This document shows, piece after piece, positions 3,894-23,801 of a stretch of DNA of 32,038 nucleotides (position 1 is its first letter; the number at the start of each line of letters is the position of its first letter). The stretch comes from a virus (Duplodnaviria > Heunggongvirae > Uroviricota > Caudoviricetes), in IMG/VR virus record IMGVR_UViG_2778261509_000010, positions 1-32,038 of that record; one strand, 5' to 3'. The translations under genes and the position numbers were made by a program. Below the pieces are notes generated by a model. That model saw only the letters and a list, made by a program, of their open reading frames with translations. It was not told the DNA's origin and did no database searches.

Positions 3894-4165
3894 GTATTCG
3901 TATTGAAATTGGCGAACGTTATGTCGTTACCAGTGACAGCTTTCAGTTTATTCTCCACGAGAAAAAGAGAGCGGAAAGCGGTAAAAACGCCGGTCAGGAA
4001 TGGCTGGCAGTGGTTGGTTATTACCCGAAATTAAGCCAGCTCGTTTCCGGCCTGATGCATCACGATATTCTGACCGGAAGCGCAAAGTCTTTTGCTGATT
4101 TAAACGCGCAGGTTGAGCAACTCAGCAGGCGTTGTTCAGAGGCTTTTGGCTCATATGGCCGTTAA
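3890..4165 (+). CDS. Small early hypothetical protein (orf83-like position)
   Basis: ATG at 3890 with GGAGA Shine-Dalgarno; overlaps the start of A. Confidence 0.5.
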   Translation: MSIRIEIGERYVVTSDSFQFILHEKKRAESGKNAGQEWLAVVGYYPKLSQLVSGLMHHDILTGSAKSFADLNAQVEQLSRRCSEAFGSYGR

Positions 4166-6455
4166 AGCCTCCGGGCGTTTTGTCCCTCCGTCAGCATTTG
4201 TTGCAGGCACCGGTAAGGCGTTTACCGGTGCTTATGCATGGAACGCGCCACGCGAGGCTGTCGGGCGCGAAAGACCCCTTACACGTGACGAGATGCGTCA
4301 GGTGCAAGGTGTTTTATCCACGATTAACCGCCTGCCTTACTTTTTGCGCTCGCTGTTTACTTCACGCTATGACTACATCCGGCGCAATAAAAGCCCGGTG
4401 CACGGGTTTTATTTCCTCACATCCACTTTTCAGCGTCGTTTATGGCCGCGCATTGAGCGTGTGAATCAGCGCCATGAAATGAACACCGACGCGTCGTTGC
4501 TGTTTCTGGCAGAGCGTGACCACTATGCGCGCCTGCCGGGAATGAATGACAAGGAGCTGAAAAAGTTTGCCGCCCGTATTTCATCGCAGCTTTTCATGAT
4601 GTATGAGGAACTCAGCGATGCCTGGGTGGATGCGCATGGCGAAAAAGAATCGCTGTTTACGGATGAGGCGCAGGCTCACCTCTATGGTCATGTTGCTGGC
4701 GCTGCACGTGCTTTCAATATTTCCCCTCTCTACTGGAAAAAATACCGTAAAGGACAGATGACCACGAGGCAGGCATATTCTGCCATTGCCCGTCTGTTTA
4801 ACGATGAGTGGTGGACTCATCAGCTTAAAGGCCAGCGTATGCGCTGGCATGAGGCGTTACTGATTGCTGTCGGGGAGGTGAATAAAGACCGTTCTCCTTA
4901 TGCCAGTAAACATGCCATTCGTGATGTGCGTGCACGCCGCCAGGCAAATCTGGAATTTCTTAAATCGTGTGACCTTGAAAACAGGGAAACCGGCGAGCGC
5001 ATCGACCTTATCAGTAAGGTGATGGGCAGTATTTCTAATCCTGAAATTCGCCGGATGGAGCTGATGAACACCATTGCCGGTATTGAGCGTTACGCCGCCG
5101 CAGAGGGTGATGTGGGGATGTTTATCACGCTGACCACGCCGTCAAAGTATCACCCGACACGTCAGGTCGGAAAAGGCGAAAGTAAAACCGTCCAGCTTAA
5201 TCACGGCTGGAATGATGAGGCATTTAATCCAAAGGATGCGCAGCGTTATCTCTGCCGTATCTGGAGCCTGATGCGCACGGCATTCAAGGATAATGATTTA
5301 CAGGTCTACGGTTTGCGTGTCGTCGAGCCACACCACGACGGAACGCCGCACTGGCATATGATGCTTTTTTGTAATCCACGCCAGCGTAACCAGATTATCG
5401 AAATCATGCGTCGCTATGCGCTCAAAGAGGATGGCGACGAAAGAGGAGCCGCGCGAAACCGTTTTCAGGCGAAACACCTTAACCGGGGCGGTGCTGCGGG
5501 GTATATCGCGAAATACATCTCAAAAAATATCGACGGATATGCACTGGATGGTCAGCTCGATAATGATACCGGCAGACCGCTGAAAGACACTGCCGCGGCT
5601 GTTACCGCATGGGCGTCAACGTGGCGCATCCCGCAATTTAAAACGGTTGGTCTGCCGACAATGGGGGCTTACCGTGAACTACGCAAATTGCCTCGCGGCG
5701 TCAGCATTGCTGATGAGTTTGACGAGCGCGTCGAGGCTGCACGCGCCGCCGCAGACAGTGGTGATTTTGCGTTGTATATCAGCGCGCAGGGTGGGGCAAA
5801 TGTCCCGCGCGATTGTCAGACTGTCAGGGTCGCCCGTAGCCCGTCGGATGACGTTAACGAGTATGAGGAAGAAGTCGAGAGAGTGGTCGGCATTTACGCG
5901 CCGCATCTCGGCGCGCGTCATATTCATATCACCAGAACGACGGACTGGCGCATTGTGCCGAAAGTTCCGGTCGTTGAGCCTTTGACTTTAAAAAGCGGCA
6001 TCGCCGCGCCTCGGAGTCCTGTCAATAACTGTGGAAAGCTCACCGATGGTGATACTTCGTTACCGGCTCCCACACCTTCTGAACACGCCGCAGCAGTGCT
6101 TAATCTGGTTGATGACGGTGTTATCGAATGGAGTGACCCGGAGGTTGTGAGGGCGCTCAGAGGTGCATTAAAATGCGGACTGAGAACACCAAATCGTCAG
6201 CAAAGAAACGGAAGTCCGTTAAAACCGCATGAAATAGCGCCATCAGCCAGGCTGACCAGGTCGGAACGATTGCAAATTACCCGTATTCGCGTTGATCTTG
6301 CTCAGAACGGTATCAGACCTCAGCGATGGGAGCTTGAGTCGCTGGCGCGTGGGGCAACCGTAAATTATGACGGGAAAAAATTCACGTATCCGGTCGCTGA
6401 TGAGTGGCCGGGATATTCAACTATAACAGAGTGGAATCAATTTGATGACGGGTAA
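4155..6455 (+). CDS. A: Rolling-circle replication initiator A (HUH endonuclease)
   Basis: HUH-like motif PHWHMMLF and paired tyrosines in AGYIAKYISKNIDGY; ATG at 4155 preferred (the ORF-track start at 4113 is a TTG). Confidence 0.9.
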   Translation: MAVKASGRFVPPSAFVAGTGKAFTGAYAWNAPREAVGRERPLTRDEMRQVQGVLSTINRLPYFLRSLFTSRYDYIRRNKSPVHGFYFLTSTFQRRLWPRIERVNQRHEMNTDASLLFLAERDHYARLPGMNDKELKKFAARISSQLFMMYEELSDAWVDAHGEKESLFTDEAQAHLYGHVAGAARAFNISPLYWKKYRKGQMTTRQAYSAIARLFNDEWWTHQLKGQRMRWHEALLIAVGEVNKDRSPYASKHAIRDVRARRQANLEFLKSCDLENRETGERIDLISKVMGSISNPEIRRMELMNTIAGIERYAAAEGDVGMFITLTTPSKYHPTRQVGKGESKTVQLNHGWNDEAFNPKDAQRYLCRIWSLMRTAFKDNDLQVYGLRVVEPHHDGTPHWHMMLFCNPRQRNQIIEIMRRYALKEDGDERGAARNRFQAKHLNRGGAAGYIAKYISKNIDGYALDGQLDNDTGRPLKDTAAAVTAWASTWRIPQFKTVGLPTMGAYRELRKLPRGVSIADEFDERVEAARAAADSGDFALYISAQGGANVPRDCQTVRVARSPSDDVNEYEEEVERVVGIYAPHLGARHIHITRTTDWRIVPKVPVVEPLTLKSGIAAPRSPVNNCGKLTDGDTSLPAPTPSEHAAAVLNLVDDGVIEWSDPEVVRALRGALKCGLRTPNRQQRNGSPLKPHEIAPSARLTRSERLQITRIRVDLAQNGIRPQRWELESLARGATVNYDGKKFTYPVADEWPGYSTITEWNQFDDG

Positions 6456-6597
6456 TCGAATGGAATGATCCGGCGGTCGTGAGGGCGCTCAGAGGTGCAT
6501 TAAAACACGGTCTGAGAATACCAAATCGTCAGCAAAGAAACGGAAGTCCGTTAAAACCGCTTGCATTTGTGCCATCGCGAGGCTGATCAAATCAGGT
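6455..6597. repeat. Decayed direct duplicate of the A gene 3' region (copy of about 6123-6260)
   Basis: Long near-identical runs (GTGAGGGCGCTCAGAGGTGCATTAAAA; CCAAATCGTCAGCAAAGAAACGGAAGTCCGTTAAAACCGC) repeated immediately after the A stop codon. Confidence 0.75.
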
Positions 6598-6684
6598 TTG
6601 TGATAAATTACTAGTATTTATATAGACCTCGCTCAGTATGGCATCACACAGAAGTAATGTAAGCGTGGGGGGCGTGGTGTACCA

Positions 6685-6713
6685 TTGATATACGACGGTC
6701 GAAAATTTACATA
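6685..6713 (+). promoter_or_regulatory. Candidate sigma70 promoter for the cargo membrane gene
   Basis: TTGATA, 17-nt spacer, TACATA upstream of the 6729-7361 ORF; by eye only. Confidence 0.3.
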
Positions 6714-6872
6714 GCCGATTTCCTGTGATTGGTTTTCGTTATGCACTCTTTTCTGAAGAGATTAACTACTGATAGACTCAGGTTGGATGTCAGAATCGCT
6801 ATAGATTTCTTGCTATATATGTATTTTTCAATGAAAATGATCTCTGATTTAAACTGTAGTAAGGTGATTGGT

Positions 6873-7361
6873 ATGGATGGTTTATGGGAAAAAATATCGT
6901 CATATAATATATTTAATAATCTTTTTCCAGGTGCTCTTTTTATTTATCTTCTTGAGAGAATGACGAAGATCGTTTTATCTGGCGATGATTTAATAAAAAA
7001 TGTTGTCCTCTATTATTTTGTTGGCTTAGTCATTGGCCGGATTGGTTCTATCGTATTGGAACCTTTTTTAAAACTATCGCGTTTGATTAAGTTTGCTCCT
7101 TATAAAGATTATGTGTCAGCATGTGGTGTGGATGGAAAAATTGAAACTTTGCAAGAGATTGCGAATATGTATAGGACGATATTTTCAATGTCAATTATTC
7201 TTTTGGCGACATTGTGCGTTGTAGGACGGTTTACTGGCGAGACATATGGCTTATCTAAAATAACGTTGGCGGTTTTTGCTATTTTGTTTGTTGTCTCATA
7301 TATTAAACAAATAAGATACATAATATATAGAGTAAATGCTGTTAATAATAAGCTGCCGTAA
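6873..7361 (+). CDS. Multi-pass inner-membrane protein, cargo gene (about 4 TM segments)
   Basis: ATG at 6873 with AAGGTG Shine-Dalgarno 6 nt upstream; ORF is open from a TTG at 6729 (ATG at 6741 also possible). Hydrophobic segments FPGALFIYLL, VVLYYFVGLVIGRIGSIVL, IFSMSIILLATLCVVG, ITLAVFAILFVVSYI; strongly AT-rich. Confidence 0.6.
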   Translation: MDGLWEKISSYNIFNNLFPGALFIYLLERMTKIVLSGDDLIKNVVLYYFVGLVIGRIGSIVLEPFLKLSRLIKFAPYKDYVSACGVDGKIETLQEIANMYRTIFSMSIILLATLCVVGRFTGETYGLSKITLAVFAILFVVSYIKQIRYIIYRVNAVNNKLP

Positions 7362-7371
7362 GGCAGCTTTT
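7351..7371. terminator. Bidirectional intrinsic terminator between convergent cargo genes
   Basis: Hairpin AGCTGCC-GTAA-GGCAGCT overlapping the plus-gene stop, followed by TTTT on plus and an AT-rich tract on minus. Confidence 0.5.
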
Positions 7372-7374
7372 GAA

Positions 7375-8466
7375 TTATTCTTCGGTTCTATAGTTACTAA
7401 TGTATGATCGTGGAGTGGCTGTTTTCCATCCTGCCCTTTCAGGAGCATTATAAAAATGGTACTTACCAAGCCCCTCGGTGGCGATAACTTTCGCTCCTCG
7501 TCGAGTAAAGGCATTAATTACAGCTTGATGGGGATGTTTATCTGAACCTGGGGCACATGATACAAATGCGGTTATCTCCCTTTTTTCGCCTTCATTTACA
7601 ATGTTACCAACAAGTTTATCGAGAACATCAGGGCCTACATTTCTCCGGCTACCATGATGAGGTACTTGAATGAATCTTAATGATTCTTTATTAATGTATT
7701 GGGAGGCTTGATCTAAGGCTGTTATACCAGCATCGCCAGTGAACACTAACGTTCTTCCATCAATCTCAAGTTTCAAAATGACACTTGAGTTATTTTGTGC
7801 CGAGGTGGTATCGTCATTATCAATACCTTCATCAGTAAACCATTCAGCAACGTAATCAATAAATTTCTTCGTTTTTTCAACTACAGACTCAAAGACTGCT
7901 TTTAGTACTTCAAATCCAGCTGTATCCTCAGCTTTTTTGGGCATTCTTGCGAAATCAGGTATTAGAGTCTCATAGTAAGATTGGGTTGGCCCGATAACAA
8001 CCAGAGTAGCATTATCCCAGGTCATTCCTTGAAAAGGCTCTTTTATTTCAATTCCTTTTTTTTCCGCTAATTTGACAGCGTCATAAGCTTTTTGTAAGTT
8101 TTCTTTCATTCGATTTGCAATACTGGCATCAGTTATCCTGCCATCTGCAAACTCACTTGCGAGACCTTGATTATGTTCCCAAGGCTTATGAATCCAAAAC
8201 TCTTTTACTTCTGCATTTTCTAGAACAGATGTAAGTCCACCGACGTGGTCACCATCGGGGTGTGTGGAGATAAGCAAGTCAATAGTTTTTGTGCGGTAGT
8301 ATTTTTCAATATGCTCAATGACTTGTTCTCCGGTGCTGGCATATCCTGCATCAATAACGACAACTTTTTGTTCATCTCTTGAACCATGTAGGTTTCCCCA
8401 TCTGATGCAGATCGCATCGCCGCTTTTTTTTTCGCCAACAGCTAGAAAATCAATTTCGTAACCCAT
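7375..8466 (-). CDS. ComEC-like metallo-beta-lactamase-fold hydrolase (putative nuclease), cargo gene (363 aa)
   Basis: MBL motifs STHPDGDHVGG (residues ~67-77), VPHHGS and KHPH, resembling the ComEC C-terminal / Lactamase_B_2 pattern; ATG at 8466 with AAGGA Shine-Dalgarno; AT-rich. Confidence 0.8.
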   Translation of the reverse strand: MGYEIDFLAVGEKKSGDAICIRWGNLHGSRDEQKVVVIDAGYASTGEQVIEHIEKYYRTKTIDLLISTHPDGDHVGGLTSVLENAEVKEFWIHKPWEHNQGLASEFADGRITDASIANRMKENLQKAYDAVKLAEKKGIEIKEPFQGMTWDNATLVVIGPTQSYYETLIPDFARMPKKAEDTAGFEVLKAVFESVVEKTKKFIDYVAEWFTDEGIDNDDTTSAQNNSSVILKLEIDGRTLVFTGDAGITALDQASQYINKESLRFIQVPHHGSRRNVGPDVLDKLVGNIVNEGEKREITAFVSCAPGSDKHPHQAVINAFTRRGAKVIATEGLGKYHFYNAPERAGWKTATPRSYISNYRTEE

Positions 8467-8628
8467 TCCATATCCTTATTAAACTGTGAATTAACATGAA
8501 TCCAAGATGTTAAATCATATGGATAATAACGCAACTTTTCCGCAGTAAATACTGTGAGCGGATTTAATCTCGTCAGAACTAAAAGCAAGTAGTGTGACGA
8601 GGGACAATGAGTCTCTTTGGGGCGTTGG

Positions 8629-9168
8629 CTATGACACTGACGCAACCAGATTAACGCCGTGAGTCAGCAGATTTGTAATCACACCGGCAATGACCCCAGG
8701 AGTCCCATCTTTCACCGCACTGATCACTTTATCCCCCATCGTTTCATTTCCACCAAGCACCTCGGGTTTTTTGTTAAGAACTGTGAGCGCTTTTTCAGTA
8801 AGTCGAACATCGTAAAAATACGACTGATGGTCTGTGTTGTACTGAATGTACCCGTTTTCACAGAGAAAATTGAATGTACCTTCAACCACACTACGCAACT
8901 GATTTAACACTTTCATTTCTGGTGAGTTAAGTTGGTCAAAGTAGTCATCAGGTAGCGCGGCGTTAAATTTGTCGTAGTTAATCACCTGTGGTACGGGAAA
9001 ATTTTCCCATAGTACTGCAAAGATTTCCGCCGTTTGTTGGTTAAATAAATCGAGATTTTTCGACATGCAAAATTCCATTTCTTTTGATAATGAGTGGGTT
9101 AAACGCTGGACGAGGCAGATTACCACTCTGGCACAAAACAATGATCTTAGTTCACGCGAAGTTGACAT
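8629..9168 (-). CDS. Hypothetical cargo protein with Gly-rich hydrophobic C-terminus (start uncertain, 145-179 aa)
   Basis: ORF open from ATG at 9168; alternative ATG at 9066 (MSKNLDLF...). C-terminal GTPGVIAGVITNLLTHGVNLVASVS looks like a membrane-interacting tail. No family recognised. Confidence 0.55.
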   Translation of the reverse strand: MSTSRELRSLFCARVVICLVQRLTHSLSKEMEFCMSKNLDLFNQQTAEIFAVLWENFPVPQVINYDKFNAALPDDYFDQLNSPEMKVLNQLRSVVEGTFNFLCENGYIQYNTDHQSYFYDVRLTEKALTVLNKKPEVLGGNETMGDKVISAVKDGTPGVIAGVITNLLTHGVNLVASVS

Positions 9169-9259
9169 ATATACCGATAAGCTGGTTGCGCAGGCAACTA
9201 GCGTAGAACTCGCTCAGGTCATCAAGATGCTATTGAATTATATTCGAATGCACAAATAA
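9065..9259 (+). CDS. Possible small protein (64 aa), divergent from and overlapping the minus-strand cargo ORF
   Basis: ATG-initiated ORF; a plus-strand intrinsic terminator lies downstream at 9399-9425; no obvious Shine-Dalgarno. Conflicts with the 5' extension of the 8629-9168 ORF. Confidence 0.25.
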   Translation: MQNSISFDNEWVKRWTRQITTLAQNNDLSSREVDIYTDKLVAQATSVELAQVIKMLLNYIRMHK

Positions 9260-9398
9260 AATGATCTGTATCAATCTGTTAGGTGTCGTTTGTAAAAATG
9301 TGTGGACACGATTGTTCTGCTAATTGTTGTCAACATGTGCGTCAACAGTGAGATTGGTGCATTGCGCGGCCAGTGACAACTTTAAAAATTGGCCAAAA

Positions 9399-9425
9399 CC
9401 GGCACTATGAATGCCGTTTTTTTTG
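9399..9425 (+). terminator. Intrinsic terminator (plus strand)
   Basis: Stem CGGCA / TGCCG with 7-nt loop followed by T8 (9417-9424). Confidence 0.5.
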
Positions 9426-9582
9426 TGTTTTTTTCTGCGATACTCCTATTTTTAGCAGTGCATGCAATATGTGCGTGGTTTTGCATGTGCCTAAGTTGCA
9501 TGTTCTGGCTGTGCACCGTCAGGACGGACGCCCCTCAAAAGTGGTAATGCACCTGCATTAAAACCGACCTATGAAGCGGGCG

Positions 9583-9770: not shown

Positions 9771-10805
9771 TCAGCCGTTGTCAGTGTCCAGTGAGTAGTT
9801 TTTAAAGCGGATGACATCCTGACCGAGCCAGCCGTTTATTTCCCGAATCCTGTCCTGTAACGGGATAAGCTCATTGCGGACAAAGACCTTTGCCACTTTC
9901 TCAATATCTCCCAGCGACCCGACATTCTCCGGCTTGCCGCCCATCAACTGAAAGGGGATGCGGTGCGCGTCCAGCAGGTCAGCGGCGCTGGCTTTTTTGA
10001 TATTAAAAAAATCGTCTTTCGTCGCCACTTCACTGAGCGGGATAATTTTAATGCCGTCGGCTTTTCCCTGCGGGGCGTAGAGAAACAGATTTTTAAAGTT
10101 GTTGCGGCCTTTCGACTTAACCATGTTTTCGCGAAGCATTTCGATATCGTTGCGATCCTGCACGGCATCGGTGACGTACATGATGTATCCGGCATGTGCG
10201 CCGTTTTCGTAATACTTGCGGCGGAACAGCGTGGCCGATTCATTCAGCCAGGCAGAGTTAAGGGCGCTGAGATATTCCGGCAGGCCGTACAGCTCCTGAT
10301 TAATATCCGGCTCCAGCAGGTGAAACACGGAACCGGGCGCGAAGGCTGTCGGCTCGTTGAAGGACGGCACCCACCAGTAAACATCCTCTTCCACACCACG
10401 GCGGGTATATTTTGCCGGTGAGGTTTCCAGTCTGATGACTTTACCGGTAGTGCTGTAACGCTTTTCCAGAAACGCATTACCGAACACCAGAAAATCCAGC
10501 ACAAAGCGGCTGAAATCCTGCTGGGAAAGCCACGGATGCGGGATAAATGTCGAGGCCAGAATATTACGTTTGACGTAAATCGGTGAGCTGTGATGCACGG
10601 CAGCACGCAGGCTTTTTGCCAGACCGGTAAAGCTGACCGGTGGCTCATACCATCTGCCGTTACTGATGCACTCGACGTAATCCAGAATGTCACGGCGGTC
10701 GAGTACCGGCACCGGCTCACCAAAGGTGAATGCCTCCATTTTCGGGGCGCTGGCGGTCATTGTTTTTGCCGCAGGTTGCGGTGTTTTCCCTTTTTTCTTG
10801 CTCAT
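9771..10805 (-). CDS. Q: Portal protein (344 aa)
   Basis: Position and size; start overlaps the P stop (ATGA). Confidence 0.9.
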   Translation of the reverse strand: MSKKKGKTPQPAAKTMTASAPKMEAFTFGEPVPVLDRRDILDYVECISNGRWYEPPVSFTGLAKSLRAAVHHSSPIYVKRNILASTFIPHPWLSQQDFSRFVLDFLVFGNAFLEKRYSTTGKVIRLETSPAKYTRRGVEEDVYWWVPSFNEPTAFAPGSVFHLLEPDINQELYGLPEYLSALNSAWLNESATLFRRKYYENGAHAGYIMYVTDAVQDRNDIEMLRENMVKSKGRNNFKNLFLYAPQGKADGIKIIPLSEVATKDDFFNIKKASAADLLDAHRIPFQLMGGKPENVGSLGDIEKVAKVFVRNELIPLQDRIREINGWLGQDVIRFKNYSLDTDNG

Positions 10806-20001: not shown

Positions 20002-20910
20002 ATGCCGATTATCGACCTGAACCAGCTACCCGCACCGGATGTGGTCGAGGAGCTGGACTTTGAAACCATTCTCGCTGAACGCAAGGCGACACTGATTTCC
20101 CTTTACCCGAAAGACCAGCAGGAGGTGGTCGCCCGTACCCTGACGCTGGAGTCTGAGCCTCTCGTCAAACTGCTGGAGGAAAATGCTTATCGTGAGCTTA
20201 TCTGGCGTCAGCGTGTGAATGAGGCCGCACGGGCGGTGATGCTGGCCTGTGCCGCCGGTAATGACCTTGATGTGATTGGTGCCAATTACAACACCACGCG
20301 CCTGATTATCACCCCGGAAGATGATTCGACCATTCCGCCGACACCGGCAGTGATGGAATCTGACACCGATTATCGTCTGCGTATTCAGCAGGCGTTTGAA
20401 GGTTTAAGCGTCGCCGGGTCGGTGGGTGCCTATCAGTATCATGGCCGCAGTGCCGACGGGCGTGTCGCGGATATCTCTGTCACCAGTCCGTCTCCGGCCT
20501 GTGTCACCATCTCTGTGCTGTCACGTGAAAATAACGGTGTGGCATCCGAAGACCTGCTGGCCGTGGTGCGTAACGCCCTTAATGGCGAGGACGTCAGGCC
20601 GGTGGCCGACCGCGTGACCGTGCAGTCTGCCGACATCGTTGAATACCAGATAAACGCCACGCTGTATCTTTACCCTGGTCCCGAAAGCGAACCCATTCGC
20701 GCTGCCGCCGTGAAAAAACTGGAAGCGTATATCACGGCACAGCACCGGCTGGGGCGCGACATCCGTCTGTCTGCCATTTATGCCGCTTTGCATGTGGAAG
20801 GCGTGCAGCGTGTCGAACTGGCTGCACCACTGGCCGACATCGTGCTCAACAGTACGCAGGCGTCTTTCTGTACTGAATACCGCGTCGCGACCGGAGGCTC
20901 GGATGAATGA
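20002..20910 (+). CDS. J: Baseplate wedge protein J (302 aa)
   Basis: Position and size. Confidence 0.85.
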   Translation: MPIIDLNQLPAPDVVEELDFETILAERKATLISLYPKDQQEVVARTLTLESEPLVKLLEENAYRELIWRQRVNEAARAVMLACAAGNDLDVIGANYNTTRLIITPEDDSTIPPTPAVMESDTDYRLRIQQAFEGLSVAGSVGAYQYHGRSADGRVADISVTSPSPACVTISVLSRENNGVASEDLLAVVRNALNGEDVRPVADRVTVQSADIVEYQINATLYLYPGPESEPIRAAAVKKLEAYITAQHRLGRDIRLSAIYAALHVEGVQRVELAAPLADIVLNSTQASFCTEYRVATGGSDE

Positions 20911-21514
20911 TTCGCGACTGCTGCCGACCGGCTCATCACCGCTTGAAGTCGCTGCCGCAAAAGCCTGTGCGGAAATTGAAAAAACGCCGGTCAGTATTCG
21001 TGAGCTGTGGAACCCGGACACCTGTCCGGCAAATCTGCTGCCGTGGCTGGCGTGGTCATTTTCGGTTGACCGCTGGGATGATAAGTGGCCGGAAGCGACA
21101 AAACGCGCTGTTATCCGCGATGCGTATTTCATTCACTGCCATAAGGGCACTATAGGCGCAATCCGGCGTGTGGTGGAGCCGCTCGGCTATCTGATTGAGG
21201 TGAGGGAGTGGTGGCAACTCAACGAGGAGCCGGGGACGTTCCGCATCGTTGTTGGTGTGCTTGAGCAGGGTATTACCGAGGAAATGTATCAGGAGCTGGA
21301 GCGCCTCGTTGCTGATGCAAAACCGGCAAGCCGCCATCTGACGGGACTGGCTATCAGCTTAAGTACAACCGGCAACATTTTTGCCGGTGCGGGATGCTAT
21401 CACGGTGACGCCCTGACGGTTTATCCCTACACCCCGGAGGCCATTATTGTCAGAGGGGATTATTTCCCGGCCTCGGCCATTCATTTAATTGATAACCTGA
21501 GAGTAAACGCATGA
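20903..21514 (+). CDS. I: Baseplate wedge protein I (203 aa)
   Basis: ATG at 20903 (MNDSRLLPTGSSPLEVAAAK...) overlapping the J stop. Confidence 0.8.
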   Translation: MNDSRLLPTGSSPLEVAAAKACAEIEKTPVSIRELWNPDTCPANLLPWLAWSFSVDRWDDKWPEATKRAVIRDAYFIHCHKGTIGAIRRVVEPLGYLIEVREWWQLNEEPGTFRIVVGVLEQGITEEMYQELERLVADAKPASRHLTGLAISLSTTGNIFAGAGCYHGDALTVYPYTPEAIIVRGDYFPASAIHLIDNLRVNA

Positions 21515-23241
21515 CAGTGAAATACTACGCCATTCTGACTAATCAGGGCGCGGCACGGCTGGCTAACGCGACGATGCTCGGCAGTAAGCTGAATCTGACG
21601 CAAATGGCCGTTGGTGATGCGAATGGTGTCTTGCCGACACCAGACCCGGCACAGACAAAACTGATTAACCAGAAACGCATCGCGCCGCTGAATCTTCTGA
21701 GTGTTGACCCGAACAACCAGAGCCAGATTATTGCGGAGCAAATCATCCCGGAGAACGAGGGCGGATTCTGGATCCGTGAGATAGGTCTTTATGATGATGA
21801 AGGCGTACTCATTGCGGTGGCGAACTGCCCGGAAACGTACAAACCACAGTTACAGGAAGGCAGTGGTCGTACCCAGACCATCCGTATGATTCTGGTCGTC
21901 TCGAATACCGAAGCCATCACGCTGAAAATCGACCCGTCAGTGGTACTTGCGACCCGCCAGTATGTAGATCAGCAAATAGAAGTTCATGAGCAATCGCGCC
22001 GTCATCCATCTGCTTCTTTGACAGAAAAGGGATTTGTACGTCTGTATAGCGGTGTGGAAAGCAATGATGAAACAGTCGCTGCAACGCCAAAAGCAGTGAA
22101 AATAGCGATGGATAATGCCAGCGCCAGACTGGCAAAAGACCGCAATGGTTCTGATATTCCCAATCCGGCACTGTTTGTTCAGAATCTGGGATTGAAAACG
22201 ACTGTTGATAAAGCAGCATCAGCGATTCAGCCAGGAGATTATGGAATTGGTCTGGCTTATCTGAAAACCATGGGAACCAAATCGCAATTTTTTGCTTACA
22301 GTACAGCTGTCGGCTATCCAGAAGTGCCAACACATGGTGCTGGTTTCCAGGCCTGTTACAACGACAATCGGCGTGCACAAATTTATGTCGCTAATGATGG
22401 CAAGATGTACTGTCGATTCAGCATGTTATCGAAAATTGCCGATGATGAAACACCGTGGAATCAGGTGTTCACCAGTGCACATTATCCAGAAGCATCAGTG
22501 AGTGTTAAAGGAATGGTGCAACTGGGGAGCGATGTAAACAGCGTGTCAGAAAATGTTGCGGCGACATTGAAAGCGGTAAAAATTGCGATGGACAACGCCA
22601 GCGCGAGACTGGCAAAGGACCGCAATGGTGCTGATATTCCTGACCCGACTTTGTTTATTCAGAATCTGGGACTTAAACCGACAGTTGATAAGGCTGAAAG
22701 TGCTCTGCAACAGGGAGCATACGGAATCGGTAGCAAAAATAACTACGAAATGGGTGAGGTTTCACAGTTTCTTGCATATTCAGGTAATGCAGATGAAGTG
22801 CCATCGAATGGTGCAGGTTTTCAGGCTGCGTATAACAAGAACAGACGCGCGCAGATTTTCATCACCGGAGCAGGGGAAATGTATCACCGTTTCAGCGGCT
22901 CTGATACGGTTAAAGACAGTACAACACTATGGCGTCGGGGTGTTTGTGAAGATGAATTTTCATTTGGCAGCAATTATCACCGAATAACTGGCGGTGTGCT
23001 GAAGCAGTTTTTTAACAGTTATTTTTCCGGGGAAACTGGTGTGGTGAATAAAAATTATCAGGTGAATTTTCCGACACCATTTGCCCGTCAGTGCTGGTAC
23101 GTGATCCCTGTTTTCCGTTCGGCACACGGTGGGAGTGTTGAGGGGGTTGCCATTACAACTATTACTGCAACTGGTTTTACTCTGAGCATCACCGGAGATA
23201 ACGGTGGATGGAATATTGGGTTTATTGCGGAGGGGGTCTGA
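21511..23241 (+). CDS. H: Tail fibre protein (576 aa) with internal tandem duplication
   Basis: Position after I. Two ~100-aa segments are near-identical (ATPKAVKIAMDNASARLAKDRNG... and AATLKAVKIAMDNASARLAKDRNG...). Confidence 0.85.
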   Translation: MTVKYYAILTNQGAARLANATMLGSKLNLTQMAVGDANGVLPTPDPAQTKLINQKRIAPLNLLSVDPNNQSQIIAEQIIPENEGGFWIREIGLYDDEGVLIAVANCPETYKPQLQEGSGRTQTIRMILVVSNTEAITLKIDPSVVLATRQYVDQQIEVHEQSRRHPSASLTEKGFVRLYSGVESNDETVAATPKAVKIAMDNASARLAKDRNGSDIPNPALFVQNLGLKTTVDKAASAIQPGDYGIGLAYLKTMGTKSQFFAYSTAVGYPEVPTHGAGFQACYNDNRRAQIYVANDGKMYCRFSMLSKIADDETPWNQVFTSAHYPEASVSVKGMVQLGSDVNSVSENVAATLKAVKIAMDNASARLAKDRNGADIPDPTLFIQNLGLKPTVDKAESALQQGAYGIGSKNNYEMGEVSQFLAYSGNADEVPSNGAGFQAAYNKNRRAQIFITGAGEMYHRFSGSDTVKDSTTLWRRGVCEDEFSFGSNYHRITGGVLKQFFNSYFSGETGVVNKNYQVNFPTPFARQCWYVIPVFRSAHGGSVEGVAITTITATGFTLSITGDNGGWNIGFIAEGV

Positions 23242-23678
23242 TGAGTTATTTTTACAGTCCATCAAGAAATGCATTTTATAACAGTGAACTGAAATCTGAT
23301 TATTACGATGCTCTCGATGCGTGGCCGGATGACTGTATTGAGGTAAGTGATGCAGTCTATCAGGAGTTTTATCTTGGTTATCGGGAAGGGTACAAAATGG
23401 TTGCAGGCACTGATAACCAGCCATCATGGGAAGAACGTCCACCATTGACCCATGAGGAACAGGTGGAACAGGCAGAAATGATGAAACAGATGCGCATTAA
23501 TGAGGCTAACAACCTGATTAATGAAAAACAATGGCCATCAAAATTACAGCTTGGCAGGCTGAGCGAATTAGAAAAGAATAGTTTTAATGCTGTACTGGAT
23601 TACCTTGATGCACTGGATAAAGTTGATATTAGTACGGCACCTGATATTGACTGGCCGGTAAGTAGCTTCAACAAATGA
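23241..23678 (+). CDS. G: Tail fibre assembly chaperone (145 aa)
   Basis: ATG at 23241 overlapping the H stop (TGATG); position. Confidence 0.75.
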   Translation: MSYFYSPSRNAFYNSELKSDYYDALDAWPDDCIEVSDAVYQEFYLGYREGYKMVAGTDNQPSWEERPPLTHEEQVEQAEMMKQMRINEANNLINEKQWPSKLQLGRLSELEKNSFNAVLDYLDALDKVDISTAPDIDWPVSSFNK

Positions 23679-23801
23679 TTGCAGTTGTCTGAATAAATTT
23701 TCTGGTTGGTGTTGTACCAGGTGTTAGCCAACCTGGATAAATAGATTGCAATAATAGCTCAACAGAAAATGCACTCACCCATTAACCACGGAGTTAAACG
23801 G

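What the first reader, a model, noticed from the sequence alone, without database searches (positions are those of the whole stretch)
21511..23678. Tail-fibre gene H carries an internal tandem duplication; H and G differ in size from the P2 prototype
Two ~300-bp segments of H (about 22075-22390 and 22555-22870) encode near-identical ~100-aa repeats, indicating a recent in-frame duplication in the receptor-binding fibre. H (576 aa) and G (145 aa) are shorter than I recall for P2 (about 669 and 175 aa), while the neighbouring baseplate genes match, which fits host-range module exchange.
Basis: partly seen in the sequence, partly recalled or inferred. Interest (0 to 1): 0.55.

Follow-up and report, generated by a model that had tools for sequence, protein, structure and literature searches.

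The report
Old two-knob repeat in tail fibre
The tail-fibre gene of this E. coli P2-like prophage does contain two tandem 160-residue modules, but they are old, diverged copies of a "linker plus knob" building block typical of phage fibres, not a recent duplication, so the finding is real but ordinary.

Summary
The repeat exists. H (21511-23241, 576 aa) holds two in-frame 160-aa/480-nt units, aa ~162-321 and ~322-479, far beyond chance. They are not near-identical: 61% aa and 60% nt identity, with synonymous sites saturated, so "recent duplication" is not supported.

Each unit has two parts. The first is a Phage_fiber_2 motif plus a helical linker shared with Mu S. The second is an ~80-aa domain with no Pfam or NCBIfam model. 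It folds confidently (pLDDT 88-97), and its structural neighbours are the knob-like domains of R-pyocin, T4 gp34 and staphylococcal phage fibres. The two knobs are no closer to each other than to knobs of unrelated fibres.

The 576-aa allele is fixed and common: about 47 of 5426 complete E. coli genomes and hundreds of contigs. A rare 416-aa allele is a precise R1xR2 recombinant that lost one unit. Another allele joins unit 1 to a P2-type distal fibre.

Relative to P2, the segment 21340-23723 (3' end of I, H, G) is replaced, which is classic host-range module exchange.

Verdict: a new member of a known kind, of low interest.

The parts
21340..21514 (+). Divergent 3' end of baseplate gene I. 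gpI is 203 aa here against 176 aa in P2. This is the left border of the segment replaced relative to P2.
   Evidence: blastn against P2 NC_001895 gives 95% identity up to window 21339, then nothing. gpI is 82% identical to P2 gpI over 175 aa and carries a 27-aa C-terminal extension.
21511..23241 (+). Tail-fibre gene H, 576 aa.
   Evidence: ORF list. PGAP annotation of an E. coli locus 99.7% identical over H-G. phrog_988 'tail protein', E 5.5e-165.
21511..21960 (+). H aa 1-150: N-terminal tail-collar fibre domain, the part that attaches to the baseplate.
   Evidence: Pfam PF12571, E 8e-63, positions 1-150/150. 93-97% nt identical to several P2-like phages up to H nt 446, i.e. window ~21956. Locus-wide blastn against NC_041848 carries identity to window 21969. 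56% aa identity to P2 H.
22009..22239 (+). Unit 1, a-part (aa 167-243): Phage_fiber_2 motif plus the helical linker 'AVKIAMDNASARLAKDRNGxDIP..F.QNLGL'.
   Evidence: PF03406 matches in 2 stretches, 102 bits. Matches Mu S residues 111-184 in PDB 5yvq; 66% identical to Mu S and 73% to unit 2.
22240..22488 (+). Unit 1, b-part (aa 244-326): knob-like domain (knob 1).
   Evidence: Aligns to unit 2. Profile search recovers it at 240-326. No Pfam or NCBIfam hit.
22489..22719 (+). Unit 2, a-part (aa 327-403): second Phage_fiber_2 motif plus helical linker.
   Evidence: PF03406. Matches 8ju3 Mu S 111-190, E 3e-24. AF2 predicts helices at H aa 350-368 and 379-385.
22720..22956 (+). Unit 2, b-part (aa 404-482): knob-like domain (knob 2).
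22957..23241 (+). H aa 483-576 plus stop codon: C-terminal tip domain, the presumed receptor-binding end.
   Evidence: Weak Pfam Gp53-like_C hit, 23.2 bits against a cut-off of 24.9, E 1e-4. Weak PHROG tail-fibre hits. No PDB sequence match. No match to the tip in any phage record at E <= 1e-3.
22081..22160 (+). Best-conserved block of unit 1, paired with 22561-22640 in unit 2. It is the crossover site of the natural one-unit allele.
   Evidence: Codons 41-60 of the unit are 83% nt identical, against 46-63% in most other windows (72% in codons 61-80). The L005 H gene matches unit 1 up to ~22151 and unit 2 from ~22160+480 onward.
23241..23678 (+). Gene G, tail-fibre assembly chaperone, 145 aa. 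Its ATG shares one base with the H stop codon.
   Evidence: Pfam Caudo_TAP PF02413, 96.8 bits. phrog_188, E 3e-50. No meaningful similarity to P2 G: one 24-aa segment, E 0.002. At most 50% identity to any assembly protein in phage records.
23679..23723 (.). Right border of the replaced segment. Identity to P2 resumes at 23724, upstream of FI. There is no Z/fun gene and no invertase here.
   Evidence: blastn against P2 and against NC_041848 resumes at window 23724 with 97-98% identity. The neighbours' annotations show Z/fun in P2 and an invertase plus a second assembly-protein gene in NC_041848.

Best explanation
H encodes a mosaic tail fibre, presumably a homotrimer, of a P2-like E. coli prophage. 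The inferred order is: an N-terminal baseplate-attachment domain (aa 1-150); two tandem paralogous 160-aa modules; a small beta-rich tip (aa 483-576); and, in the next gene, the dedicated assembly chaperone G.

Each module is a Phage_fiber_2 motif and helical linker followed by an ~80-aa knob-like domain. The two modules are old copies with saturated synonymous divergence. They are as far from each other as from knobs in unrelated fibres.

They arose either by an ancient in-situ duplication or, about equally likely, by accretion of a second module. Accretion would occur through unequal recombination between different fibre genes at the conserved linker block.

That same block still mediates recombination. 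One natural allele has lost exactly one unit by an R1xR2 crossover. Another allele joins unit 1 to a P2-type distal fibre.

Inferred function: the modules set fibre length and stiffness and help trimer folding. By analogy with R-pyocin Knob2 they may also add a second glycan-binding site.

The tip and G differ completely from those of P2. The phage therefore probably uses a different receptor from the one P2 uses.

The whole segment 21340-23723 is a host-range cassette exchanged among P2-like backbones.
For: The repeat is real and in frame. It is old: 60% nt identity, pS 0.70.

Domain content: PF12571, PF03406 twice, a weak Gp53-like_C hit, and Caudo_TAP for G. The a-part equals Mu S residues 111-190.

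The knob has no Pfam or NCBIfam model. It forms a small family of 74 representatives among 1.84 billion proteins, nearly all with one copy and a few with two.

The knobs are not sister to each other.

The one-unit 416-aa allele is an exact R1/R2 chimera at the DNA level. P0195 is N-terminus, unit 1, then a P2-H-like distal part.

Cassette borders are given. The distal 426 aa are nearly invariant, while the N-terminal 150 aa are mosaic across 115 alleles. The allele is present in about 47 of 5426 complete E. coli genomes.

Against: Trimeric state, receptor and any binding role of the knobs are inferred, not shown.

The tip domain folded poorly (pLDDT 45-64), and its Pfam hit is below the cut-off.

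The origin of the second unit, in-situ duplication or module accretion, is not resolved. The a-parts are slightly closer to each other (73%) than to Mu S (66-68%), which mildly favours in-situ duplication. The knobs argue the other way.

The one-unit allele is known from a single short-read sample.
Confidence: 0.8

Rival explanations
1. One reading: a recent in-frame tandem duplication in the receptor-binding fibre, still near-identical and possibly polymorphic.
For: The period is exactly 480 nt and in frame. One 60-nt block reaches 83% nt identity.
Against: Overall nt identity is 60% and synonymous sites are saturated. The longest exact shared run is 14 nt. The knob halves are 46% identical and are not nearest neighbours. 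The two-unit form is fixed at 98-100% identity in hundreds of contigs and in about 47 complete genomes.
Confidence: 0.02
2. Ancient in-situ duplication of one linker+knob unit within an ancestral fibre gene, followed by long divergence. The conserved linker block is held by purifying selection or by occasional gene conversion.
For: The order and the 160-aa period are identical in both units. The a-parts are closer to each other (73%) than to Mu S (66-68%). The local peak of third-position identity, 0.70 in codons 41-60, is compatible with conversion. R-pyocin Knob1 and Knob2 are explained this way.
Against: The knobs are not each other's closest relatives; R2b is 50-51% identical to knobs of other fibres against 46% to R1b. 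Unit 1 occurs as a separate cassette in front of a different distal fibre.
Confidence: 0.4
3. Module accretion: the two units come from two different fibre genes and were joined by unequal, homeologous recombination at the conserved Phage_fiber_2/linker block. No duplication ever happened in this gene.
For: The knob phylogeny is non-sister. The linker block is shared with Mu S and many other fibres, and crossovers are seen to occur there. These are the one-unit chimera, the P0195 junction inside the second Phage_fiber_2 motif, and the cassette border at H codon ~153.
Against: No donor fibre carrying only an R1-type or only an R2-type unit with high identity was found. With 87 aligned columns the knob tree has little resolution.
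Confidence: 0.4
4. The repeat is not a biological feature: a chance similarity, low-complexity sequence or an assembly artefact.
For: None beyond the general caution that repeats can be mis-assembled.
Against: The alignment score is about 80 standard deviations above shuffles. The same two-unit gene is present in about 47 independently finished complete genomes. Both units keep an open frame and Pfam motifs.
Confidence: 0.01

Closest known systems
Tail fibre gpH and assembly protein gpG of phage P2 (NC_001895; Peduoviridae)
   Same: Same operon position, V-W-J-I-H-G followed by FI. Same N-terminal tail-collar fibre domain, PF12571, 56% identical over aa 26-206. Phage_fiber_2 motifs follow the N-terminal domain. 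A Caudo_TAP chaperone lies downstream.
   Different: P2 H is 669 aa and has two adjacent Phage_fiber_2 motifs with no knob of this family between them. Its distal 460 aa and its G (175 aa) show no significant similarity. P2 carries Z/fun after G; this prophage does not.
R1/R2-type pyocin fibres of Pseudomonas aeruginosa (PDB 6CL5, 6CL6; Buth et al. 2018, PMC6116203)
   Different: The pyocin knobs are adjacent, joined by one helix-plus-turn, and 20% identical. Here each knob is preceded by a 77-aa Phage_fiber_2/helical linker and the knobs are 46-48% identical. There is no detectable sequence similarity. There is no long iron-binding shaft between knob 2 and the tip; the tip follows directly.
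Tail fibre S of phage Mu (PDB 5YVQ, 8JU3)
   Same: Each a-part matches S residues 111-190 at 66-68% identity, E about 1e-24. This is the conserved block long known to be shared by Mu, P1 and P2 fibres (own knowledge: Haggard-Ljungquist et al. 1992; Sandmeier 1994).
   Different: Mu S has this block once, whereas H has it twice. The sequence match to Mu S ends at the a-part. Mu uses an invertible G segment to switch tips, and this prophage has no invertase.
Knob-like domains of T4 gp34, phage K gp144 and phi11 gp45
   Different: There is no sequence similarity, and they belong to different fibre contexts.
AP22 gp53 C-terminal domain (Pfam PF21882; bioRxiv 10.1101/518761)
   Same: A weak profile match of the H tip, aa 509-572. 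AP22 gp53 is a trimeric fibre end that binds sugar surrogates.
   Different: The score is below Pfam's cut-off (23.2 against 24.9). There is no PDB sequence hit, and the AF2 confidence for the tip is low.

Membership tests
P2-type (Peduoviridae) tail fibre gpH | N-terminal tail-collar fibre domain (Pfam PF12571) | tested here: met
   E 8.1e-63, 211 bits, full length 1-150/150.
P2-type (Peduoviridae) tail fibre gpH | Position in the late operon between baseplate gene I and a tail-fibre assembly gene, upstream of sheath gene FI | tested here: met
   ORFs and Pfam assignments for J, I, H and G. PGAP annotation of an E. coli prophage with a 99.7% identical H-G stretch. Flanks are 95-97% nt identical to P2.
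P2-type (Peduoviridae) tail fibre gpH | Homotrimeric fibre attached to the baseplate | not testable with these tools
   Only monomer prediction is available.
Recent tandem duplication | Copies nearly identical at the DNA level, with low synonymous divergence | tested here: not met
   60% nt identity, pS 0.70, dS about 2 or saturated; the longest exact shared run is 14 nt.
Recent tandem duplication | Copies are each other's closest relatives | tested here: not met
   R1b-R2b are 46% identical. R2b is 50-51% identical to knobs of other fibres. Nearest-neighbour bootstrap support is 14% and 5%.
Phage tail fibre repeat (Pfam PF03406, Phage_fiber_2) | Profile match above the gathering score | tested here: met
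   102.3 bits against a cut-off of 22, in two stretches, one at the start of each unit.
Knob-like domain of phage and pyocin fibres (Buth et al. 2018) | An ~80-residue antiparallel beta-sheet domain structurally superposable on the pyocin, gp34, gp144 or gp45 knobs | tested here: inconclusive
Knob-like domain of phage and pyocin fibres (Buth et al. 2018) | Three copies pack around the fibre axis with the sheets buried in the trimer interface | not testable with these tools
   No multimer prediction is available.
Knob-like domain of phage and pyocin fibres (Buth et al. 2018) | Sequence match to a curated knob model, such as the NCBI 'pyocin knob domain' label | tested here: not met
   No Pfam or NCBIfam hit on the b-part of H or on 55 relatives. 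One relative, P0129 from Aeromonas, carries that NCBI name. Which of its domains earned the name could not be tested, because CDD is not available.
Gp53-like C-terminal domain (Pfam PF21882) | Profile match above the gathering score | tested here: not met
   23.2 bits against a cut-off of 24.9, E 1e-4. This is a resemblance only.
Caudovirales tail-fibre assembly protein (Pfam PF02413) for G | Profile match above the gathering score, and location directly downstream of the fibre gene | tested here: met
   96.8 bits against a cut-off of 22.1, residues 10-140. The start codon overlaps the H stop codon.

The most novel reading that the evidence does not exclude
The b-part may define an unnamed sequence family of fibre knobs, with 74 representatives in 1.84 billion proteins and no Pfam or NCBIfam model. 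These knobs would be secondary glycan-binding sites. Recombination at the conserved linker block would then work as a natural copy-number switch, with one-knob, two-knob and knob-plus-foreign-tip alleles. That switch would change fibre length or valency, and so host range, within E. coli P2-like prophages.
Probability: 0.15. Interest if true: 0.45.

Novelty: new member of a known kind. Interest (0 to 1): 0.2.

Why it matters
The result corrects a tempting reading. An internal repeat in a receptor-binding protein need not be a fresh adaptive duplication. Here it is the normal modular construction of fibres: linker plus knob units joined at conserved recombination blocks.

It gives exact domain and crossover coordinates for a fibre allele that is common in E. 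coli prophages but absent from sequenced phage isolates.

It also identifies natural one-unit and hybrid alleles. These could guide the design of P2/P4-based delivery particles with swapped fibres, as in PMC9594776 and PMC9942202.

It does not open a new biological question.

Tried and rejected
- AF2 on H aa 151-576 without an alignment gave pLDDT 33 and was unusable.
- The first tblastn was out of frame.
- The NCBIfam scan of H and of knob-bearing relatives returned nothing.
- PDB sequence searches with the tip and with G returned nothing, even at E <= 10 and E <= 1.
- Foldseek against BFVD returned only generic tail-fibre proteins.
- The search for homologous proteins was saturated by 98-100% identical E. 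coli alleles and gave no diversity. The 50%-representative profile search was needed for that.
- A Biopython neighbour-joining bootstrap timed out. It was replaced by a nearest-neighbour bootstrap.
- I searched complete E. coli genomes for the one-unit junction. Every listed hit was split in two pieces spanning 810 nt, as a two-unit gene gives, and no record reached 99% identity, so no clear one-unit junction was seen.
- I considered that the 416-aa allele is a de Bruijn assembly collapse. This is unlikely, since R1 and R2 share no exact run longer than 14 nt.
- I considered an invertible fibre segment as in Mu, P1 and some P2-like phages. No invertase or second assembly-protein gene lies between G and FI.
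Full report
**Context.** The window is a P2-like (Peduovirus) prophage of Escherichia coli. It is 97-98% identical over 21 kb to a prophage in strain GD33. Its tail genes are 95-97% identical to phage P2. The finding covers gene H (21511-23241, 576 aa) and gene G (23241-23678, 145 aa; its ATG shares one base with the H stop). PGAP annotates both with these sizes in an E. coli genome whose H-G stretch is 99.7% identical.

**Is the repeat there?** Yes.
- The repeat finder reports a 248-nt direct repeat with a spacing of exactly 480 nt.
- BLASTP of the two halves gives 61% identity over 154 aa, E 8e-63.
- The local alignment score is 442, against 31 +/- 5 for shuffled sequence.

Unit 1 is aa ~162-321 and unit 2 is aa ~322-479.

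**Is it near-identical or recent?** No.
- Over 156 aligned codons the DNA identity is 60%. The proportion of synonymous differences is 0.70, so dS is about 2 overall and not computable in the knob half. pN is 0.30.
- The longest exact run shared by the two units is 14 nt.
- Codons 41-60 of the unit (AVKIAMDNASARLAKDRNG.DIP) stand out at 83% nt identity. Codons 61-80 reach 72%, and the other windows reach 46-63%.

**Anatomy of H.** The parts, in order, are as follows.
- aa 1-150: the tail-collar fibre N-terminal domain (PF12571, E 8e-63).
- a-part of each unit (77 aa): a Phage_fiber_2 motif (PF03406) plus a linker. It matches residues 111-190 of Mu fibre protein S (PDB 5yvq and 8ju3, E about 1e-24). 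It is predicted to be partly helical.
- b-part of each unit (~80 aa): the motif is YGIG..MG..SQF.AYS...EVP..GAGFQA.YN.NRRAQI....G.MY.RFS......D..T.W. No Pfam or NCBIfam model matches it in H or in 55 diverse relatives.
- aa 483-576: a tip with only a sub-threshold resemblance to the AP22 gp53 C-terminal domain (23.2 bits against a cut-off of 24.9).
- G: a Caudo_TAP assembly chaperone (96.8 bits).

**What is the b-part?** A profile of the two copies was searched against 1.84 billion representative proteins. It finds only 74 proteins at E <= 1e-3. Those checked are long fibre-like proteins of Enterobacterales, Aeromonas and Acinetobacter. Most carry one copy and a few carry two.

Among 50,697 phage records only about ten contain it, for example HK633 side tail fibre, CAjan, Hafnia phage yong1 and Proteus phage Privateer.

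- Belisarius tailspike
- phi812 receptor-binding proteins
- phage K gp144 (5m9f)
- R2 pyocin fibre (6cl6, 6cu2)
- T4 gp34 (5nxh)
- Mu S (8ju3)
- a second Acinetobacter tailspike (6eu4)

Pyocin fibre, gp144, gp34 and gp45 are the proteins that Buth et al. (PMC6116203) list as carrying knob-like domains. The Foldseek PDB top hits are also the R1/R2 pyocin fibres, though not significantly (E 0.04-0.3). I therefore read the b-part as a knob-like domain, with moderate confidence.

**How old is the repeat, and how did it arise?** In an 87-column alignment of 71 knobs, R1b and R2b are 46% identical. R2b is closer to knobs of other fibres (50-51%). The two are mutual nearest neighbours in only 14% and 5% of bootstrap resamples. 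The a-parts are 73% identical to each other and 66-68% identical to Mu S.

This excludes a recent duplication. It leaves two possibilities that I cannot separate. One is an ancient in-situ duplication. The other is accretion of a second module by unequal recombination between different fibre genes at the conserved linker.

**The units still recombine.** Three alleles bear on this.
- P0124 is 416 aa, exactly 576 minus 160. It lies in a divergent P2-like prophage, L005, which is about 73% nt identical elsewhere. Its single unit matches window unit 1 at 100% in codons 191-210. From about codon 211 to the H stop it switches to unit 2 at 93-100% per 60-nt window, mostly 97-100%. The crossover falls in a 10-nt identical stretch at about window 22152-22161. 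If the one-unit form were the ancestor, both units of the 576-aa gene would have diverged from it. In fact R2 is still near-identical to it while R1b is only ~46% identical. So this allele is a recent deletion derivative of a two-unit gene. It also shows horizontal transfer of the distal fibre, because G in L005 is only 66% identical.
- P0195 is 570 aa and from E. coli. It has the N-terminus, unit 1 and the first Phage_fiber_2 motif of unit 2. It then continues as a P2-H-like middle region with a glycine-rich tip. Unit 1 therefore behaves as a portable cassette.
- P0122 is a frameshifted copy.

**Distribution.** The two-unit allele is the norm.
- Forty-seven of 5426 complete E. coli genomes hold at least 80% of H+G at 93-99.7% identity.
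- The 120 best database hits are all 98-100% identical over the distal 426-aa query, and nearly all are 576 aa. Single clusters are seen on up to 308 contigs.
- Every listed hit to the one-unit junction is split in two pieces spanning 810 nt, as a two-unit gene gives, and no complete genome reaches 99% identity to it.
- Across 115 distinct alleles the distal 426 aa are almost invariant (53 variable sites). The N-terminal 150 aa are mosaic (67 variable sites). One distal cassette thus rides on many backbones.
- No sequenced phage isolate carries more than the N-terminal 446-459 nt at the DNA level.

**Module exchange.**
- Against P2, identity is 95% up to window 21339, inside gene I. It resumes at 23724, before FI.
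- gpI is 82% identical and has a 27-aa extension.
- H aligns to P2 H only over aa 26-206, at 56% identity. G has no significant similarity.
- Against Peduovirus magyaro (NC_041848), identity runs to 21969 (H codon 153) and resumes at the same 23724.

The nested borders lie at the end of the N-terminal domain, inside I, and after G. This is the pattern expected for host-range cassette exchange in P2-like phages. Own knowledge: Haggard-Ljungquist et al. 1992. Engineered equivalents are described in PMC9594776.

**How it most likely works.** Most of this paragraph is inference.
- Three H chains form a fibre anchored by aa 1-150.
- The two linker+knob modules form the shaft. They set fibre length and stiffness and aid trimer folding.
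- The tip, folded with the help of G, binds the receptor.
- By analogy with R-pyocin fibres, a knob may provide a second binding site. In those fibres Knob2 and the C-terminal domain are the variable, putative binding regions, about 100 A apart.
- The receptor is unknown. It is probably not that of P2, because the tip and G are unrelated.

**Comparison and novelty.** Tandem knobs in a P2-related fibre, their origin by duplication, and fibre evolution by motif reuse are already described for R-type pyocins. Mosaic exchange at conserved fibre blocks is textbook.

Three things appear undescribed in what I could search. One is this particular knob sequence family. Another is the longer unit, in which each knob has its own Phage_fiber_2/helical linker. 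The third is the natural one-unit and hybrid alleles.

I classify the finding as a new member of a known kind, with low interest (0.2).

**Dead ends** are listed under 'tried and rejected'.

Noticed in passing
window 6729-8466 (ORFs 6729-7361 + and 7375-8466 -), plus an unassigned ORF at 8629-9168 (-): These ORFs lie between the long replication-gene ORF (4113-6455) and ORF 9771-10805 (-), which lines up with the portal gene of GD33. The GD33 prophage does not align here (window about 6590-9458). Two ORFs match the PADLOC candidate defence system PDC-M48: M48A at E 1.7e-50 and M48B at E 7.4e-101. M48B is a metallo-beta-lactamase-fold protein. From my own knowledge, this position is the known P2 cargo and defence hotspot.
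   Followed up: partly
window 20903-21514 (gene I): gpI is 203 aa, against 176 aa in P2. It has a 27-aa C-terminal extension, and its last ~58 codons fall inside the replaced segment (border at 21339/21340). The gpI C-terminus therefore seems to travel with the H N-terminal allele, perhaps because the two contact each other.
   Followed up: partly
window 23679-23801 (between G and FI): There is no cargo between G and the sheath gene. P2 has Z/fun here. Peduovirus magyaro (NC_041848) has a second, inverted assembly-protein gene, a small ORF and a DNA invertase, i.e. an invertible fibre segment. Identity to both relatives resumes at exactly the same base, 23724.
   Followed up: partly
L005 4001-5682 (Logan SRR14117170): In this divergent P2-like prophage the near-identity to the window's distal H (93-100% nt per 60-nt window) stops at the H stop codon. 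G is only 66% identical in protein. The fibre tip was therefore exchanged without its chaperone, or the chaperone tolerates much more change than the tip.
   Followed up: partly
window 22583-22987 (+, other frame) and protein P0122: A 491-aa E. coli database protein is a frameshifted H. It leaves the H frame inside knob 2 and reads into this alternative-frame ORF. It is probably a pseudogene or a sequencing error.
   Followed up: no
window 21511-21960 (H aa 1-150): Among 115 otherwise 98-100% identical alleles, the N-terminal domain has 67 variable sites out of 150, against 53 out of 426 in the rest of the protein. The same distal cassette is joined to several different N-terminal alleles.
   Followed up: partly
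proteins P0125 and P0128/P0197 (relatives, not in the window): A few unrelated fibres also carry two copies of this knob. In P0125 they are directly adjacent with no linker. In a Hafnia prophage fibre they are about 80 aa apart. Tandem knobs of this family thus occur in several different arrangements.
   Followed up: no
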